A stretch of DNA of 64,000 bases from Escherichia phage EdH4. Shown piece after piece: positions 34,319-44,342 of the stretch. Position numbers and translations under genes: made by a program. The DNA is taken from sequence record MK327930.1, one strand, 5' to 3'. Each line of letters opens with the position of its first letter. The first letter of the stretch is position 1. The notes beneath the pieces are model-generated. The model saw only the letters and a list, made by a program, of their open reading frames with translations, searched no databases and was not told where the DNA came from.

Positions 34319-35503
34319 TTAAGCTTTAGCCAAAATGGCGCTAAACTCTTCACCAAACTCTTTTACAATCTTCATCAGGTTTGGGTATGCTTTGATCAGC
34401 TGAGCAACAATCTTGTCACGCCCTTTACCGATAAGCAAGGCATTTCCTAAGGCATTAGGTTTCATCATCGCCATAAAGACTGAGAATACAAAATCTCGGT
34501 TCTCGTCCTTGAAGTTTTCCCAAAGGAAATCGAGGAAGTTTGCCACGCAGCTGACAAGATCTTCGTCTGAGATACTTGCATTTTCCATCATATTGCGAAT
34601 AGCGATACAACCTTCAGATCCAAGAATCCACAAAATGTCTGGCTGCTTAGGACCTACGTATTCTTTGCAGCCACCTGCCATAATCCGACCGATTTCCGGT
34701 AAATTACGTTTCTTGGTGTGGTAAGTCCAGATCTCTACCGCTGCAGTGTGACCAATAGCACCTTGTAGAAGAACACGGGCCATAGCGTCAGAAATAATAC
34801 CGCTGTCAAAATCGTGCAAGATGTCAGATGCAGCAACCCAAGATCGTGGTGTGGCAAAAGATGGACAATTAATCTCAGCCATAGCCTCATAATTATCAAT
34901 AGCTGATGGAACTCTTTTCAGATACCCAATTACAGAGGAGTGAACCCCGTTGAGGAATGCGTAGTCCTCAATAAACACCTCTGCATTGCTTGTAACCTCT
35001 ACAATGATAAAACGGTTAGCCAGAGGGGCTTCGAGCGCCGAAAGAACCGCACCATCTGTAGAACGGTTACCCGCAGCCACAAAAACAGAACCCTTAGGGA
35101 ATGCATAGGTGCCGCACTTGTGGTCAAGCATAATTTGCATTGCAACCTTTTGCAGGTAGTTATCTGCATGAGTGAGCTCATCCAGAAAGATAATTCCGCT
35201 CCAGTCAGGATCCGCAGGCCAAAATTCTGGAATTGCAAACACTGTACGTGTAGTTCCATCCGCTTCTACAGGGATAGGTAGCCCAGATAAGTCGGCAGGA
35301 TCTTTATCTGACAGTCGCACGTCAACAAGGTTGTCATCTCGCTCACCGAACATATTATCAGCGATCTGCTTCATCACCTGGCTTTTACCCACACCCATTG
35401 GTCCCAAAATTAGGACAGATCGGCTATGACGTTGGGCAAACTGAATAATAGCTGGCAACTCACGGACAGTGATTTGACCACTTTCGAATACGTTTCTTGA
35501 CAT
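34319..35503 (-). CDS. MoxR-like AAA+ ATPase
   Basis: Walker A GPMGVGKS; Walker B IIFLDELTHA. Confidence 0.75.
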   Translation of the reverse strand: MSRNVFESGQITVRELPAIIQFAQRHSRSVLILGPMGVGKSQVMKQIADNMFGERDDNLVDVRLSDKDPADLSGLPIPVEADGTTRTVFAIPEFWPADPDWSGIIFLDELTHADNYLQKVAMQIMLDHKCGTYAFPKGSVFVAAGNRSTDGAVLSALEAPLANRFIIVEVTSNAEVFIEDYAFLNGVHSSVIGYLKRVPSAIDNYEAMAEINCPSFATPRSWVAASDILHDFDSGIISDAMARVLLQGAIGHTAAVEIWTYHTKKRNLPEIGRIMAGGCKEYVGPKQPDILWILGSEGCIAIRNMMENASISDEDLVSCVANFLDFLWENFKDENRDFVFSVFMAMMKPNALGNALLIGKGRDKIVAQLIKAYPNLMKIVKEFGEEFSAILAKA

Positions 35504-38001: not shown

Positions 38002-38083
38002 AAGTAAGTGCTCCTATGTTAGTTTTCTTTCGAATGGGTGCACTATATTGTGGAGTTAGAGTAAAGTCAACACGTTTTTGATG

Positions 38084-38112
38084 TTGACATCTGTTGAGAC
38101 AATTGATACGAT
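38084..38112 (+). promoter_or_regulatory. Sigma70-like promoter TTGACA-N17-TACGAT for the plus-strand cluster
   Basis: The track's TTG/ATG start at 38078 lies inside this promoter. Confidence 0.5.
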
Positions 38113-38143
38113 TTCTTCACTTACAGAGCACGAGAGACGACTC

Positions 38144-39121
38144 ATGAATCTTGAAAAATATTATACACCAGAAGAGTTAGAGCGCTTGCTCAAAAAATAT
38201 AGACGCAAACAGAATAACGCACGGAAACGAGATATAGAGTTCGACCTGTCATGGGAAGAATACCTCCTATTTGGTAAAAAACTTTTAGGAGATGGAGTAT
38301 GCGACTATACCCTTATACCTTTTGACATGCACACAGATGAAAACGGGCTGGGGAATCCTTTCTACCCATCTCTGGAGCGGATAGATGATGAAGGTCCTTA
38401 TGCGGTTGATAACTGTTGTGTGGTGGGATTGAGATGCAACTCTCTAAAGGACTGTCTGGTAGATAAAAAGACTGCAGTCTTGATTAAAGACGAAACTGAT
38501 CGAAAAATTGTCCAGCAGATGATGCTCCACCTGAGCGAAGAGCGTATGGAGAAATTGAAAGGTGATTATACTTTTGAAGATTTCATCTTGCAATATGGAA
38601 CGGAAGAGGATAAACTAGCACTCTTTGACGAAGAAGAGGAGGAAGATATGCTACCGATGTCTAAAGTTACTTATCGTGCACCCAAGAAGCACATTTCCGA
38701 CATTGTAAACGAGCCTATCACAGAAGAGATTGAAGAAATGACGCAACAGGTGCATGAAGAGGAAAAAGAGACTCAGGAGGTCGAAGAGGAGCTTACAGAA
38801 GAGGTTCCTCCACTACCTGATGATGTTGAGATTGCCAAAGCTTACACTTTCTATTGTCAAACGTTCTACGATGTAGGTATGAAAGTTGATCTGTCGTTCA
38901 GCCAATTTAAGAGTTCGTATATTCGCAAATGCTGTGCTTTAACTGGTGAACGTCTTGGAGCTGGACTTAAACCCCTGTTGGTGACCGACTGGAATAAAGG
39001 TTTCACTAAAGGAAACTTTATGGTAGTATCTCCAATTATGGAGAAAGCTATGACAGATCTTATGAAGACCACCCGCATGACAATGACCGAGTTGGCAGGT
39101 ATTTTCAAACACGTTAAATAA
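38144..39121 (+). CDS. Hypothetical protein with Cys-rich N-terminal half and acidic C-terminal half
   Basis: Start trimmed to the ATG downstream of the promoter; contains in-frame copy 2 of the 29-bp repeat. Confidence 0.55.
   Translation: MNLEKYYTPEELERLLKKYRRKQNNARKRDIEFDLSWEEYLLFGKKLLGDGVCDYTLIPFDMHTDENGLGNPFYPSLERIDDEGPYAVDNCCVVGLRCNSLKDCLVDKKTAVLIKDETDRKIVQQMMLHLSEERMEKLKGDYTFEDFILQYGTEEDKLALFDEEEEEDMLPMSKVTYRAPKKHISDIVNEPITEEIEEMTQQVHEEEKETQEVEEELTEEVPPLPDDVEIAKAYTFYCQTFYDVGMKVDLSFSQFKSSYIRKCCALTGERLGAGLKPLLVTDWNKGFTKGNFMVVSPIMEKAMTDLMKTTRMTMTELAGIFKHVK
38651..38680 (+). repeat. 29-bp inverted repeat, copy 2 (in-frame LPMSKVTYRA inside CDS 38144..39121)
   Basis: Exact match to the reverse complement of 36790-36819. 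Confidence 0.8.
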
Positions 39122-39154
39122 TGACAGGGGCCAATGGCCCATTCTGGAGTTTTA

Positions 39155-40615
39155 ATGGATAGCAGAAGTTCAGAAATCATTGCCTCACAGAAAGATGATG
39201 CCCTGAGAATGTTGCAGGCTGCACGTATGTATCTCCTTGAAAAGCTGCCGTTTTATGGCACACTACTGTCAGGGTTGCAGTTCGTAGAAAACCACACATG
39301 GTGCTCCACCATGGCAACCGACCATAAACGCATCTACTACAGCCCTGAGTTCATTATGGGGTTGGCGGATGAGCGTAAAACCATTCTTAAAGCATCTCTG
39401 ACTGACAAGCAGTTTGAGATGGCTGAGGTTTTCTATTCCCCAAAATCTGTGAAAGAGGTGGCCTTTCTTCTGTCACATGAGGTGGGGCATATTATCTGTG
39501 ATCATCTGGTCCGTGGTAAAAGCTTTGAGCCGGAACTGTTCAATATTGCTTGTGATCACGTTATCAACACAGGTCTTGTGGTTGACTTTAGCAAGCCTCC
39601 TTGTGTTTTCTTCCCAAAGGGGAAAAGCACTGAGTTCGTAAAAGGTAAGCCTTTTGGCTTCTTAGCTAGTTGCTACTGCGACATGAAGTTTCATGGATGG
39701 ATTGCTGAGAACGTCTATGCAGTTCTTGATAAGCAAAGAGATCAGAATAACGGTAAAAGTAAGAGCGGCAAAGGTGAGAATTCTCAAGGAGATAAGCGAC
39801 AAACCGATGATCACATGAGCGGCAACGGTGGCACCAGCGATGATCTTGGAAAGGCTATGGGGTATGATCAGCCACAACCTGTAATCAGCCAATCTGATAA
39901 AGATCAGGCCATGCAGGACTCTGGTGATATGCTGGAGGCAGCAATGCAAGCGTCCGGAGGCCGTTGCCCTGAGGCGGTGCGTGAGTTTGTCAAGAACAGA
40001 GGTAAGCCTGTAATCAACTATATAGACATCATTAAGCAACGTATGTTGTCTAAAAGAAAGGCCGAACTGACCTACAGAAAACCTGGTCGCCGATCTGGGT
40101 CTTTGACCAGCACAATGCGAAAAGTTGGGGCTATAAACAAGAACCAGCACGTTATTGTTCCTGGTCGTAATCCGGAAAACACTATAGATATTGTGGTGGC
40201 TTTAGACGTTTCTGGCTCGATCTCTCAAAGAACTTTAAAGAAAATGTTCAATGAAATCACCGGATTGTGCAATCTGTATAAAGAGTTTAAGGTTACAATG
40301 TTCTGTTGGTCAACTGAGGTTGGAGAGGTTAAAGTATACACTCGCGGCAACATAGACGAGATGGTCAACTATGAGGTCCACTCAACATGGGGCACAACAG
40401 CTGCTTGCGTGTTCGAGTATCTGGATGCCAACATACCTAATGCAAAAGATGTCATCGTCCTGACCGACCTATACTTTGAGCATAACTTTGAACAAAAGGT
40501 TGTTGACAACAAGTGGAAAAAGTACGATACTCTATGGGTCCTCACTGAGGGGTATAATAAAAATTATATCCCGAGCTTTGGGAAAACTGTGGAATTAATC
40601 GAGTACGCTAAGTAA
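39155..40615 (+). CDS. Zinc metallopeptidase-like plus von Willebrand factor A domain protein
   Basis: HExxH in LLSHEVGHIICDH; VWA MIDAS motif VVALDVSGS; start trimmed to the ATG with a GGAG RBS. Confidence 0.7.
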   Translation: MDSRSSEIIASQKDDALRMLQAARMYLLEKLPFYGTLLSGLQFVENHTWCSTMATDHKRIYYSPEFIMGLADERKTILKASLTDKQFEMAEVFYSPKSVKEVAFLLSHEVGHIICDHLVRGKSFEPELFNIACDHVINTGLVVDFSKPPCVFFPKGKSTEFVKGKPFGFLASCYCDMKFHGWIAENVYAVLDKQRDQNNGKSKSGKGENSQGDKRQTDDHMSGNGGTSDDLGKAMGYDQPQPVISQSDKDQAMQDSGDMLEAAMQASGGRCPEAVREFVKNRGKPVINYIDIIKQRMLSKRKAELTYRKPGRRSGSLTSTMRKVGAINKNQHVIVPGRNPENTIDIVVALDVSGSISQRTLKKMFNEITGLCNLYKEFKVTMFCWSTEVGEVKVYTRGNIDEMVNYEVHSTWGTTAACVFEYLDANIPNAKDVIVLTDLYFEHNFEQKVVDNKWKKYDTLWVLTEGYNKNYIPSFGKTVELIEYAK

Positions 40616-40630
40616 GAGAGGAGGTTATTT

Positions 40631-40894
40631 ATGGCAACAGAGTTAAAATTTGCATCAAACCGTAAAACTAAGAAGTATCTGTCCTCAGTAGCTCCAGGCA
40701 CTGTGGTGATGTTTGTTGATGAACTTGGGGATGTGAATACAGCACTTGTTGTAAAATCACATCCTGCAAACATATATGTTGGGGTATTTGACCTGTTCAG
40801 AAAGGTGTTTGTAGAACTGCCTCACAGTTTGGTTGTTACAGAAATGGATGCCTGCATAGAAATTCTTGGCGAAGTTATGGTGGAGGAACAATAA
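40631..40894 (+). CDS. Small protein, tandem paralogue family 3 (member 1 of 4)
   Basis: 87 aa; shares the pattern K..F..G.VV...D...V.K.....VF.L..........VTE.D..I.ILGE with the next three genes. Confidence 0.6.
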   Translation: MATELKFASNRKTKKYLSSVAPGTVVMFVDELGDVNTALVVKSHPANIYVGVFDLFRKVFVELPHSLVVTEMDACIEILGEVMVEEQ

Positions 40895-41157
40895 TGGCTA
40901 CCAGCATTGTATTCAATTCTAAGGTGAAGAACAAAAAGCGTGCAGACAGTTTTCCGTGTGGGACCGTGGTAAGTTGCGACGGAGACGGCATTCAAAACAT
41001 AGTTATGATTGTCAAAACAGGAGAACATTGTGTGTGGGGGTTCGATTTAGAAAATAATGAGTTGTACGATCTGCCGCCAAACATGAAAGTTACAGAGCTT
41101 GACACCAAAATTACCATCCTTGGAGAGACAAGCTATTCAAAAGAAGGAGGAGAATAA
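40894..41157 (+). CDS. Small protein, tandem paralogue family 3 (member 2)
   Basis: 87 aa; TAATG overlap with the previous gene. Confidence 0.6.
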   Translation: MATSIVFNSKVKNKKRADSFPCGTVVSCDGDGIQNIVMIVKTGEHCVWGFDLENNELYDLPPNMKVTELDTKITILGETSYSKEGGE

Positions 41158-41420
41158 TGACCACAAAAATCACTATCGCAGAACCGAAAGCTAACACTCA
41201 GCCTATCGAAAAGTTTAAGTGCGGTGAGGTGGTAACATTCACACCAGATAATGAAGATGCTAAGATTTTCGCAATGGTCACAGCTGAGTGGATGTGTGAC
41301 AACACCACACAGGTTCTGCGTTTTGACACCTACCTTACAGATGAAATCAGGAACGATAAGATCGTGACTGGTGTAGATACTGAAATTATTTTCTACAAGA
41401 GCTTTTTAGAGGGTTTCTAA
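41157..41420 (+). CDS. Small protein, tandem paralogue family 3 (member 3)
   Basis: 87 aa; TAATG overlap with the previous gene. Confidence 0.6.
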   Translation: MTTKITIAEPKANTQPIEKFKCGEVVTFTPDNEDAKIFAMVTAEWMCDNTTQVLRFDTYLTDEIRNDKIVTGVDTEIIFYKSFLEGF

Positions 41421-41421
41421 T

Positions 41422-41658
41422 ATGGCGAAAATTCGTAAATTATCCAACAATCAGGTTGTTAAAGATTTTGAACCCGGGGAGATTCTGTATGTTCGTGATG
41501 CAGATGACGAAGGAGAAGATCTTGTTATGCTGCTAGGACACGCTGCTGAGGACGGATGCATCCAGGCTGTTTTTCTTGAAACAGCTATGGTGCACTGGAT
41601 AGAGCTGGACATGAAAGCACGAAAACCTAAAGCAGAAATCCTGATTTACGAAGATTAA
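41422..41658 (+). CDS. Small protein, tandem paralogue family 3 (member 4, divergent)
   Basis: 78 aa; conserved FEPGEILYV...VFLETAMVHWIELD. Confidence 0.55.
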   Translation: MAKIRKLSNNQVVKDFEPGEILYVRDADDEGEDLVMLLGHAAEDGCIQAVFLETAMVHWIELDMKARKPKAEILIYED

Positions 41659-41674: not shown

Positions 41675-42124
41675 GTGTTGAGCAAACGTGAATGCGACAG
41701 CATTAGCCTGAATTCTTATAAGAAACAATGGTTTGGGGTAGAAGTTTGCCGACTGCGGCTAGGCTCCTACCTGAACTTCGTTTATTACGAGAGCGACAGT
41801 CGTATCGTTTCTTATGAAGTGTTCTACACTAAGAACACATTCGAACTGCGCCGTAAAGTAGAGGGAGGGAGAACTACCACCCAGAATAATTGGGAAACTA
41901 TTCTGCCTCCAGATGTTATAGGAAGTCCCCTGAATGTATCTGAAGATGAAAATCTTATGGTTCATGCTATGATGGGACTTGACAGCTTAGAGCTGGCGAT
42001 CTATGATATGTCCATCGAAGCAGTTAAGCTGGACTACATCGAAAACACTTTAGAGGAAGGTATCAAGAAGTTTCTCAGTGAGAAATTAAAAGATCACTTT
42101 CATAAGGAGCTATACCTGTTATGA
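41675..42124 (+). CDS. Hypothetical protein
   Basis: GTG start with an AGGAGAG RBS; 149 aa. Confidence 0.55.
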   Translation: MLSKRECDSISLNSYKKQWFGVEVCRLRLGSYLNFVYYESDSRIVSYEVFYTKNTFELRRKVEGGRTTTQNNWETILPPDVIGSPLNVSEDENLMVHAMMGLDSLELAIYDMSIEAVKLDYIENTLEEGIKKFLSEKLKDHFHKELYLL

Positions 42125-42366
42125 AGACCCGTAAAGAACGTAACAAAATTTTACCTGGAGCTCTCGAACACCTGATGAAGTGCAGATCTATTTGGCACTC
42201 TGCCAAGGAAGGGCAGAAGGTGGTTGTGGTTAGTGACAATACCAACCCGTTTGGAGATTATACCACCATGATGGCCCCATATGTCCGTGATGGCGTTGTA
42301 GAAGTGGTCCCTTACAACGGTTTGCATGAACGGCACTTTGAAAGCACTTTGCTAGTGGAGCTATAG
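42121..42366 (+). CDS. Hypothetical protein
   Basis: 81-aa ORF, overlapping stop/start. Confidence 0.5.
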   Translation: MKTRKERNKILPGALEHLMKCRSIWHSAKEGQKVVVVSDNTNPFGDYTTMMAPYVRDGVVEVVPYNGLHERHFESTLLVEL

Positions 42367-43961: not shown

Positions 43962-44342
43962 ATGTGCAAGTGTAAATCCTATAATTGGAAAGTGAAAGGT
44001 GCCAAGCATCCAAATGTTATCGTTGATGTGCCTAAAAATCTTCGTGACGGCAAAAAACGTGTGTGCCTTGATAAGTGTATGGCTAAGCCTATCATGAGTT
44101 TGTGGGCAGCAGGTTTGAAAACGCTAAACTGCTGCTGTGGTCATAACAAAGATATTCCAAGCATCATTATCCCAGAAGATGCAGATCCTAAAGCTTATGC
44201 CAAAATACTGACCCGCTATCCCAGCACCTTCCTGATCGGAAAATGGTGTCACGATGAACTCCAATGGTGGATAGCCTATGGTAGTATAGGCACTACTTTT
44301 GGCTTCCCAGCTTTGTCAGAGCGCTATGTCAAAGTGTCATAA
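43962..44342 (+). CDS. Cys-rich protein
   Basis: 126 aa; CKCK...CLDKC...CCCGH; followed by hairpin aggcctcaaacgaggcct. Confidence 0.55.
   Translation: MCKCKSYNWKVKGAKHPNVIVDVPKNLRDGKKRVCLDKCMAKPIMSLWAAGLKTLNCCCGHNKDIPSIIIPEDADPKAYAKILTRYPSTFLIGKWCHDELQWWIAYGSIGTTFGFPALSERYVKVS

What the first reader, a model, noticed from the sequence alone, without database searches (positions are those of the whole stretch)
40631..41658. Array of four tandem, translationally coupled paralogous genes (about 87 aa each)
Four consecutive plus-strand ORFs of 87, 87, 87 and 78 aa share a clear sequence pattern (K..F.CG.VV.....D......V.K....VFDL.....L....VTE.D..I.ILGE). The first three are joined by TAATG stop/start overlaps. 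Tandem amplification and divergence of a small protein is typical of loci under diversifying selection, such as inhibitors that each target a variant of a host factor or defence protein. The family is not one I can name.
Basis: seen in the sequence. Interest (0 to 1): 0.7.

Follow-up and report, generated by a model that had tools for sequence, protein, structure and literature searches.

The report
Four-gene array of small phage beta-barrel proteins
Four adjacent small genes in this rV5-like E. coli phage are old copies of one narrowly distributed family of acidic SH3-like barrel proteins that the phage can lose in the laboratory, so they are probably optional host-manipulating factors, though no function has been shown.

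Summary
ORFs A (40631-40894), B (40894-41157), C (41157-41420) and D (41422-41658) are real, co-oriented genes with Shine-Dalgarno sites. A/B and B/C share TAATG overlaps. A and B are plainly related (E about 1e-11). C and D join the family only through profiles (hhalign about 90%, E about 1e-6) and a shared predicted SH3-like five-strand barrel.

The window is a Vequintavirus, and the genes correspond to rV5 gp14-gp16. The family is tiny: six real hits among 1.84 billion representative proteins.

The "diversifying selection" reading is only partly right.
- C and D occur in all 117 records. They are strongly conserved (C: dN = 0 with dS 0.38-0.84).
- Only the first slot varies. It holds A+B in about 43 records and one gp14-type gene, about 40% identical to each, in about 74. 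The swap borders are sharp.
- Related lineages carry a single copy.
- Every measurable dN/dS is 0.34 or lower.

Published transposon data for phage Bas54, whose C protein is identical, call all three array genes non-essential on E. coli K-12. They are also not co-required with the neighbouring MoxR and metallopeptidase genes on strain CFE311.

Best reading: dispensable, probably early-expressed, protein-binding accessory factors. Function is unproven and interest is moderate.

The parts
38084..38112 (+). Sigma-70-type promoter-like site (TTGACA, 17 nt, TACGAT with an upstream TG). It lies at the position of rV5 promoter P11 and is the likely start of the transcription unit that holds the array.
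   Evidence: Consensus scan. rV5 annotates P11 74-102 nt upstream of the gp11 start. [quoted passage not shown] Activity was not tested.
38078..39121 (+). Orthologue of rV5 gp11, a Srd-like putative anti-sigma factor and the first gene of the unit. The annotated start in relatives corresponds to about 38144.
   Evidence: PHROG hits to Srd anti-sigma factor and sigma-70 decoy families. rV5 and Bas54 annotations.
39134..40615 (+). DUF2201 putative metallopeptidase with a VWA-like domain (rV5 gp12/13, Bas54_0055), immediately upstream of the array.
   Evidence: Pfam DUF2201_N at 2.5e-28 and DUF2201 at 3e-11. 98% identical to bas54_0055.
40631..40894 (+). Paralogue A, 87 aa. First gene of the variable slot.
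   Evidence: ORF. phrog_10698 at 7.6e-43. 100% identical in phage Murica. 58% identical orthologue in the divergent lineage L006, with dN/dS 0.23.
40894..41157 (+). Paralogue B, 87 aa. Second gene of the variable slot.
   Evidence: phrog_10698 at 4.8e-41. Present at 80% identity or more in 43 of 117 Vequintavirus records. AlphaFold model with pLDDT 80.4, all-beta.
40643..41154 (+). Swapped cassette: the coding bodies of A and B. rV5-type phages carry one 85-aa gp14-type gene here instead.
   Evidence: Alignment of the window with rV5 runs at about 97% identity up to codon 4 of A and again from the TAATG at the start of C. The stretch between cannot be aligned.
41157..41420 (+). Paralogue C, 87 aa (rV5 gp15, Bas54_0053). 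Its protein sequence is almost invariant.
   Evidence: phrog_12861. At least 94% identical in 117 of 117 records. dN = 0 with dS 0.38-0.84. 100% identical to bas54_0053, which is non-essential on K-12.
41422..41658 (+). Paralogue D, 78 aa (rV5 gp16, Bas54_0052). It has the barrel core but lacks the long N-terminal strand.
   Evidence: phrog_12046. At least 87% identical in 117 of 117 records. dN/dS 0.03-0.10. AlphaFold model with pLDDT 80.3.
41675..42124 (+). Orthologue of rV5 gp17, 149 aa. It is not a family member. In other Vequintavirinae genera it follows the metallopeptidase gene directly.
   Evidence: phrog_6790. Synteny in loci L014-L018. Not matched by the family HMM.
34319..35503 (-). 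Orthologue of rV5 gp4 and Bas54_0063, annotated as a MoxR ATPase, in the divergent unit. It is the presumed partner of the VWA-metallopeptidase and is listed as context only.
   Evidence: It has the same length and position as the Murica and rV5 gene. Pfam here gives only a weak AAA_14 hit below threshold. Bas54_0063 is needed on strain CFE311.

Best explanation
**Shown.**
- A, B, C and D are real genes of an rV5-like Vequintavirus.
- They are ancient paralogues of one narrowly distributed family of proteins of about 80-90 aa.
- All four are acidic (pI 4.5-5.0).
- The predicted fold is an SH3-like (Tudor/KOW-like) five-strand barrel. In A and B a short basic N-terminal strand precedes it.
- Orthologues are dispensable on E. 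coli K-12 and carry no virion mass-spectrometry annotation.
- C and D are fixed in the genus and strongly conserved.
- The first slot carries alternative cassettes: A+B, or one gp14-type gene.

**Inferred.**
- The genes lie in the unit driven by a host-type sigma-70 promoter, so they are probably made early.
- With no catalytic motif and an acidic surface, each most likely acts by binding a protein partner, either a host protein or one from a competing element.
- That would make them conditionally useful host-takeover or counter-defence factors.
- C and D would then address invariant partners. The slot-1 paralogues would address partners that differ among hosts.
- Overlapping stops and starts would give roughly matched protein amounts.
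For: - **Genes and paralogy:**
- **Charge:** pI 4.5-5.0 for the four window paralogues, barrel net charge about -8, and N-terminal 20 residues +4 in A and B.
- **Narrow family:** six real hits among 1.84 billion representatives. No phage hit outside Vequintavirus.
- **Transcription context:** a sigma-70 promoter-like site and no internal terminator. rV5 unit 11-26.
- **Not in the virion list:** rV5 genes 14-16 have no homologue and no 'MS evidence' note in Table S3, and are absent from the MS-detected proteins named in the text.
- **Dispensable:** in Bas54, transposons hit 17/17, 13/15 and 12/12 TA sites in the slot-1, C and D genes. All three are called non-essential. The Bas54 C protein is 100% identical to the window's.
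- **Selection:** C has dN = 0 at dS 0.38-0.84. D has dN/dS 0.03-0.10. dN for A and B is about 15 times higher. A C-type gene is 82% identical in a lineage whose metallopeptidase is 47% identical.
- **Variable slot and copy number:**
Against: - No experiment shows a binding partner, a phenotype or the timing of expression.
- D's model was built with the other paralogues in its alignment, so its agreement with B's model is not independent.
- On the one natural isolate with retrievable data (CFE311), insertions in C and the slot-1 gene were not depleted. D was only weakly depleted and not significantly. No condition is yet known in which the genes matter.
- Strong conservation of a dispensable gene fits many roles other than host takeover.
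Confidence: 0.5

Rival explanations
1. The small barrels are adaptors, substrates or regulators of the neighbouring MoxR ATPase and VWA-metallopeptidase pair. A preprint reports that the MoxR gene is needed to overcome a predicted E. coli defence, DS-28.
For: A family member lies directly downstream of the DUF2201 gene in the window, rV5, L006 and the single-copy lineage L009. On strain CFE311, MoxR (log2FC -7.23, q = 0) and the metallopeptidase (-2.20, q = 0.009) are depleted. D (-1.32) and gp17 (-2.28, p = 0.028) trend the same way.
Against: On CFE311, C (+0.33) and the slot-1 gene (+0.46) are not depleted, and D is not significant (q = 0.68). Five other Vequintavirinae lineages and an N4-like phage carry the DUF2201 gene with no family member nearby. 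Family members occur away from the DUF2201 gene in L012 and L020-L024.
Confidence: 0.12
2. One reading: the array is a set of inhibitors kept diverse by diversifying selection, each aimed at a different variant of one host factor or defence protein.
For: Slot 1 holds at least four types that are about 40% identical to one another: A, B, gp14-type and P0042-type. They are exchanged within genomes that are otherwise about 97% identical. Copy number is 1, 3 or 4. All the genes are dispensable on K-12.
Against: Every measurable dN/dS is 0.34 or lower. Each type is well conserved internally (gp14-type about 0.1). C and D are nearly invariant and universal in the genus. The paralogues share only core residues, which suggests different partners rather than variants of one partner.
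Confidence: 0.15
3. They are KOW/Tudor-like factors that dock on host RNA polymerase, the ribosome or nucleic acid, and act with the Srd-like gp11 to redirect gene expression.
Confidence: 0.1
4. The four proteins form a hetero-oligomer that serves phage assembly or replication, in a structural or chaperone role.
For: Overlapping stop and start codons and similar sizes. Small barrels of this fold class often oligomerise (general knowledge).
Against: All three Bas54 orthologues tolerate insertions. rV5 Table S3 marks none of genes 14-16 as having virion mass-spectrometry evidence. Related lineages carry a single member, or C alone.
Confidence: 0.04

Closest known systems
SH3-like small beta-barrel fold class (Tudor, KOW, uL2 and EF-P/eIF5A N-terminal domains)
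   Different: No sequence-family membership: Pfam gives nothing at E up to 1. The barrel is acidic. A and B add a long N-terminal strand. These are stand-alone phage proteins, not domains of larger proteins.
Phage accessory regions: variable hot spots between conserved genes, rich in counter-defence genes (Silas et al., bioRxiv 10.1101/2023.04.06.535777)
   Same: Slot 1 shows alternative gene content with sharp borders in near-identical genomes. The genes are small, uncharacterised and non-essential.
   Different: C and D are not variable at all. No counter-defence phenotype is known. That paper does not mention rV5-like phages.
Small uncharacterised barrel proteins of other phages, such as N4 Gp21 and proteins of phages 172-1, LAMP, Cronus and ES17 (BFVD models)
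   Same: Similar size (70-90 aa) and similar predicted fold. Both the B and D models hit them at TM 0.5-0.7.
   Different: 10-23% identity, Foldseek E only 1e-3 to 1e-1, and no sequence link. All are themselves uncharacterised.
MoxR AAA+ ATPase and VWA-protein pairs, here the phage MoxR and DUF2201 metallopeptidase
   Same: Physical neighbourhood in Vequintavirus and in L009.
   Different: The barrels are neither ATPase nor VWA proteins. They are absent from most phages that carry the pair. They were not co-required with it on CFE311.
Classic small early host-takeover proteins such as T7 Gp2 or T4 AsiA (own knowledge, not tested here)
   Same: Small, acidic, in a host-promoter-driven (presumably early) unit, without a catalytic motif, and conserved within their phage group.
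   Different: No sequence or demonstrated structural relationship, and no known target.

Membership tests
Tandem paralogue array | The members are significantly similar to one another. | tested here: met
   A-B E about 1e-11. C and D join through hhalign (E 2e-6 and 1.4e-6) and an HMM-versus-shuffle test.
Tandem paralogue array | The members are adjacent, on the same strand, with nothing between them. | tested here: met
   Overlaps or gaps are at most one base.
SH3-like small beta-barrel fold | A five-strand barrel whose closest structural matches are SH3, Tudor or KOW domains. | tested here: met
KOW / Tudor / SH3 sequence families (Pfam) | A match to the family profile at or near its threshold. 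| tested here: not met
   No such Pfam hit at E up to 1 for any of the four proteins. The PDB profile search has its best E at 0.39.
Sm/Hfq-like ring proteins | An N-terminal helix followed by a bent five-strand sheet, with ring assembly. | tested here: not met
Phage accessory region | Different gene content between conserved flanks in closely related genomes. | tested here: met
   Met for slot 1 only: A+B in about 43 records and a gp14-type gene in about 74, with sharp borders. Not met for C and D, which are universal.
Phage accessory region | The genes are dispensable for growth on a permissive host. | tested here: met
   Taken from the literature, not measured here: Bas54 orthologues are called non-essential, and orthology was checked.
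Locus under diversifying selection | dN/dS above 1, or an excess of amino-acid change between orthologues. | tested here: not met
   dN/dS is 0-0.34 wherever dS is measurable. Site models were not run, and several slot-1 pairs are saturated.
Known anti-defence or host-takeover protein families | A sequence match to a characterised family. | tested here: not met
   The matching PHROGs have unknown function and none is in the host-takeover category. No dedicated anti-defence profile library was available.
Obligate partner of the MoxR / VWA-metallopeptidase module | Co-occurs with the module across phages and shares its phenotype. | tested here: not met
   The module occurs without barrels in other genera. 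Barrels occur elsewhere in L012 and L020. C and the slot-1 gene are not depleted on CFE311.
Early phage gene | Transcribed early from a host-type promoter. | not testable with these tools
   There is only a consensus promoter match and the rV5 authors' proposed unit. No expression data were found.

The most novel reading that the evidence does not exclude
C and D are invariant binders of a highly conserved E. coli hub protein, and the slot-1 paralogues are interchangeable specificity modules of the same system. Together they would form a modular small-barrel host-takeover or counter-defence device. That would explain why an 87-aa protein that is dispensable in the laboratory shows no amino-acid change across synonymous divergence of 0.4-0.8.
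Probability: 0.1. Interest if true: 0.7.

Novelty: new member of a known kind. Interest (0 to 1): 0.4.

Why it matters
rV5-like phages are among the E. coli phages most often isolated and are candidates for therapy and biocontrol, yet most of their presumably early genes have no known role. This work merges three "unknown" PHROG families into one barrel family. It separates a variable slot from two strongly conserved members and links them to published essentiality data. That yields short, clear deletion and pull-down targets. Gene C is the most pointed case: it is dispensable in the laboratory but shows no amino-acid change, so it must matter under some natural condition. If the partners prove to be host defence or core host proteins, the array would be a compact model for how gene duplication and cassette exchange shape phage counter-measures.

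Tried and rejected
- **A fifth paralogue.** The 81-aa ORF at 42121-42366 (gp18) scores -0.6 bits against the family HMM, and 669 of 2000 shuffles do as well. Rejected.
- **gp14-type gene as an A/B chimera from unequal crossing-over.** Segment identities lean weakly that way (11/22 against 7/20, then 4/19 against 8/19). The counts are too small to be significant.
- **The 86-87-aa gene upstream of the metallopeptidase in Seunavirus, Avunavirus and Klebsiella phages as a displaced homologue.** No HMM signal.
- **Named families.** Pfam, NCBIfam and PDB sequence searches gave nothing useful.
- **Locus searches.** IMG/VR held only two loci with C.
- **DNA-level features.** No DNA repeats between the copies. 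No internal promoter or terminator above background. No tRNA genes in the window.
- **Literature.** The rV5 paper lists genes 14-16 without homologues. The accessory-gene preprint does not cover rV5-like phages. The daunorubicin paper is not relevant to these genes.
- **BASEL phenotypes.** Raw plating data exist. They were not mined, because all Vequintavirinae behave alike towards the abortive-infection systems tested and restriction sensitivity tracks recognition-site counts.
- **A second HIDEN-SEQ host (CFE303).** The data could not be retrieved. The sheet with that title carries the CFE311 comparison.

Full report
**1. What is there**

A/B and B/C share a TAATG in which the stop and the start overlap by one base. 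C and D are one base apart. Each start has a Shine-Dalgarno-like site. No DNA-level repeat links the copies. No internal promoter or terminator stands out above background.

**2. Are they paralogues?**

A and B are clearly related, at 37-39% identity with E 2.7e-12 to 2e-11. Pairwise, C and D are only marginal: B-C gives 4e-4 with composition correction off and 0.017 with defaults, C-D gives 0.003 and B-D gives 0.022.

Orthologue profiles settle the matter.
- The A/B/gp14 group against the C orthologues gives 89.5% probability, E 2e-6, over 73 columns.
- After adding two divergent members found later, the profile matches the D orthologues at 90.5%, E 1.4e-6, over 69 columns.
- An HMM built without D scores D at 22.3 bits, against a best of 15.1 in 2000 shuffles.
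- That HMM finds only these four ORFs among all ORFs of at least 40 aa in the window.
- The nearby 81-aa ORF at 42121-42366 is not related.

**3. Which genome, and what is annotated**

The window is an rV5-like Vequintavirus. It is 98.8% identical to phages naswa and C12, and 118 records match. The genes are orthologues of rV5 gp14-gp16, annotated everywhere as hypothetical.

They sit between a DUF2201 VWA-metallopeptidase gene (39134-40615) and gp17. [quoted passage not shown] A matching TTGACA-17-TACGAT site lies at 38084-38112.

rV5 Table S3 lists genes 14-16 with no homologues and no note of virion mass-spectrometry evidence. They are also absent from the MS-detected proteins named in the paper's text.

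**4. How wide is the family?**

It is very narrow. A word-indexed search of 5.8 billion proteins and an exhaustive HMMER search of 1.84 billion representatives returned only Vequintavirus-like proteins. The exhaustive search gave six real hits. tblastn against 50,697 phage records found nothing convincing outside the genus. Pfam, NCBIfam and PDB sequence searches were empty. PHROGs splits the four genes into three families of unknown function.

**5. Copy number and the variable slot**

Among 117 Vequintavirus records, about 43 carry A+B. About 74 carry a single 85-aa gp14-type gene that is about 40% identical to both A and B.

In an alignment of the window with rV5, identity is about 97% up to codon 4 of A. 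It returns at the TAATG that starts C. The stretch between cannot be aligned. So the coding bodies of slot 1 are exchanged as a cassette. Both configurations occur within one species, Vequintavirus murica (Murica and Pr121LW).

More distant relatives show other arrangements.

| Lineage | Metallopeptidase identity to window | Family members present |
|---|---|---|
| L006-L008 | 82% | Four genes |
| L009/L010 (metagenomic) | 62% | One member (P0044) in the same slot; it hits A, B, C and D about equally (E 4.5e-4 to 4e-3) |
| L012 | not determined | A slot-1-type gene (P0042) in a different context |
| L020-L024 | 47% | C-type gene only, about 2 kb upstream of the metallopeptidase gene |

Five other Vequintavirinae lineages and an N4-like phage have the metallopeptidase gene but no family member near it.

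**6. Selection**

Two comparisons show how differently the genes evolve.

*Window against the divergent four-gene lineage L006:*

| Gene | Amino-acid identity | dN | dS | dN/dS |
|---|---|---|---|---|
| Metallopeptidase | 82% | 0.127 | saturated | not computable |
| A | 58% | 0.32 | 1.37 | 0.23 |
| B | 70% | 0.285 | saturated | not computable |
| C | 96.6% | 0.020 | 0.67 | 0.03 |
| D | 93.6% | 0.022 | 0.69 | 0.03 |

*Window against rV5 and Pr121LW:*

| Gene | Result |
|---|---|
| C | 16-20 synonymous differences, no amino-acid change (dS 0.38-0.52) |
| D | dN 0.022, dS 0.30-0.33 |
| gp17-gp19 | dS 0.08-0.14 |
| Metallopeptidase (Pr121LW only) | dS 0.20 |

Other results point the same way.
- rV5 C against an IMG/VR contig is 100% identical at dS 0.84.
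- gp14-type alleles have dN/dS of about 0.1.
- In lineage L020, C has dN 0.12 while its neighbours have 0.42-0.67.
- C is at least 94% identical in all 117 records, and D at least 87%.

No comparison shows diversifying selection. Because synonymous sites in C vary freely, its conservation acts on the protein and not on the DNA. The higher dS in C and D next to the cassette suggests old haplotypes linked to the two slot-1 states. That last point is inference.

**7. Fold**

| Model | Mean pLDDT | pTM | Strands |
|---|---|---|---|
| B (15-sequence alignment) | 80.4 | 0.67 | 2-16, 25-30, 33-42, 47-51, 56-60, 65-76 |
| D | 80.3 | 0.67 | 21-25, 32-37, 46-51, 56-61, 65-67 |

D has the same five-strand core as B but lacks the long N-terminal strand. 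D's alignment included the other paralogues, so the two models are not fully independent.

- Against BFVD, the B model finds the independently built models of the A and gp14-type orthologues first, and the D orthologue at rank 13.
- The D model finds its own orthologue (99% identical) first and the A orthologue at rank 9.
- Both models share hits to small uncharacterised phage proteins such as N4 Gp21.
- The four window paralogues are acidic (pI 4.5-5.0), as are their relatives (down to 4.2). In A and B the first 20 residues carry +4 and the rest -8.

**8. Experimental data from the literature**

A 2025 preprint on HIDEN-SEQ (10.1101/2025.11.20.689424) mapped transposon insertions in Bas54 (MaxBurger, MZ501093). 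I checked orthology directly.

| Bas54 gene | Window counterpart | Identity | TA sites hit on K-12 | log2FC, K-12 against CFE311 |
|---|---|---|---|---|
| bas54_0054 | slot 1 (gp14-type) | about 40% to A and B | 17/17 | +0.46 |
| bas54_0053 | C | 100% | 13/15 | +0.33 |
| bas54_0052 | D | 93.6% | 12/12 | -1.32 (q = 0.68) |
| bas54_0051 | gp17 | 99% | 30/33 | -2.28 (p = 0.028, q = 0.195) |
| bas54_0055 | metallopeptidase | 98% | 81/86 | -2.20 (q = 0.009) |
| bas54_0063 | MoxR ATPase | not compared | 60/64 | -7.23 (q = 0) |

All of these genes are called non-essential on K-12.

The authors report that the MoxR gene and bas54_0140 are needed to overcome a predicted defence, DS-28. The barrels are therefore dispensable in the laboratory. 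On this host they are not co-required with the neighbouring MoxR and metallopeptidase genes.

**9. Interpretation**

*Shown:* a four-member array of ancient paralogues from a tiny family with a predicted SH3-like barrel; two universal and strongly conserved members; one swappable slot; dispensability on K-12; and no virion mass-spectrometry annotation.

*Inferred:* early expression from a host-type promoter, and action by binding a protein partner. The barrels have no catalytic motif and an acidic surface. A gene that is dispensable yet so conserved fits a conditionally useful host-takeover or counter-defence factor.

The rivals are less likely, but none is excluded.
- A cofactor role for the MoxR/VWA module is weakened by the phyletic pattern and the CFE311 data.
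- Diversifying selection is contradicted for C and D and unsupported by dN/dS for slot 1.
- The RNA polymerase or ribosome idea rests on generic fold hits alone.

**10. Novelty and score**

Tandem families of small, dispensable, uncharacterised proteins in presumably early gene regions are common in large phages, so this is a new member of a known kind. Three things are new here.
- Three PHROG families are merged into one barrel family.
- The array is shown to combine a variable slot with a frozen core.
- The genes are linked to published essentiality data.

C is a sharp and testable puzzle. Interest is 0.4.

Noticed in passing
L009:2119-3258 (also in L010): A TnpB-type gene sits between the divergent gp10-like and gp11-like genes of a 124-kb rV5-like metagenomic phage contig. 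Pfam gives Cas12f1-like_TNB at 1.6e-19 and OrfB_IS605 at 4e-7, both above threshold. It looks like an IS605-family insertion in a lytic-type phage.
   Followed up: partly
phage records MG0656xx (for example MG065635.1, hits H1 and H26): Sixteen GenBank records named 'Campylobacter phage', with host Campylobacter jejuni, are 97-99% identical to E. coli Vequintaviruses across this region. The host label looks doubtful.
   Followed up: no
window 39134-40615 compared with L002:1257-2718: The rV5 reference record splits the DUF2201 metallopeptidase into gp12 (441 aa) and an overlapping gp13 (81 aa). The window, Murica and Bas54 have one intact ORF of 486-493 aa. This is probably a frameshift or sequencing error in rV5.
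   Followed up: no
window 41157-41658: Synonymous divergence from rV5-type phages is 2-5 times higher in C and D (dS 0.30-0.52) than in gp17-gp19 downstream (0.08-0.14). It looks as if old haplotypes linked to the two slot-1 states extend into C and D.
   Followed up: partly
window 43962-44342: A cysteine-rich 126-aa ORF (CxC...CCCGH) has no Pfam match. Its homologues lie directly beside family members in two other lineages: after P0042 in L012 and before the C-type gene in L020.
   Followed up: partly
L009:6938-8128: The gp19 homologue is duplicated in tandem (197 and 183 aa) in the lineage that has only one barrel gene. Different small families have expanded in different lineages of this unit.
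   Followed up: no
window 41675-42124, 39134-40615 and 38078-39121: The PHROG-derived labels look wrong. gp17 is called 'tail protein', and the metallopeptidase and the Srd-like gene are called 'HNH endonuclease'. gp17 lies in the gene 11-26 unit and is non-essential in Bas54. These labels have spread into several GenBank records.
   Followed up: partly
supplement file 9 of 10.1101/2025.11.20.689424, sheet 'Data S6': The sheet titled 'resampling_K-12_vs_CFE303' records a command line for sample 311. Its numbers match the next sheet, so the CFE303 comparison seems to be missing from the stored file.
   Followed up: partly
L025 (Bas54) genes bas54_0051 and bas54_0055; window 41675-42124 and 39134-40615: On strain CFE311 the metallopeptidase gene (q = 0.009) and gp17 (p = 0.028, q = 0.195) are depleted along with MoxR. 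The preprint's text names only MoxR and bas54_0140. The VWA-metallopeptidase may belong to the same counter-defence.
   Followed up: no
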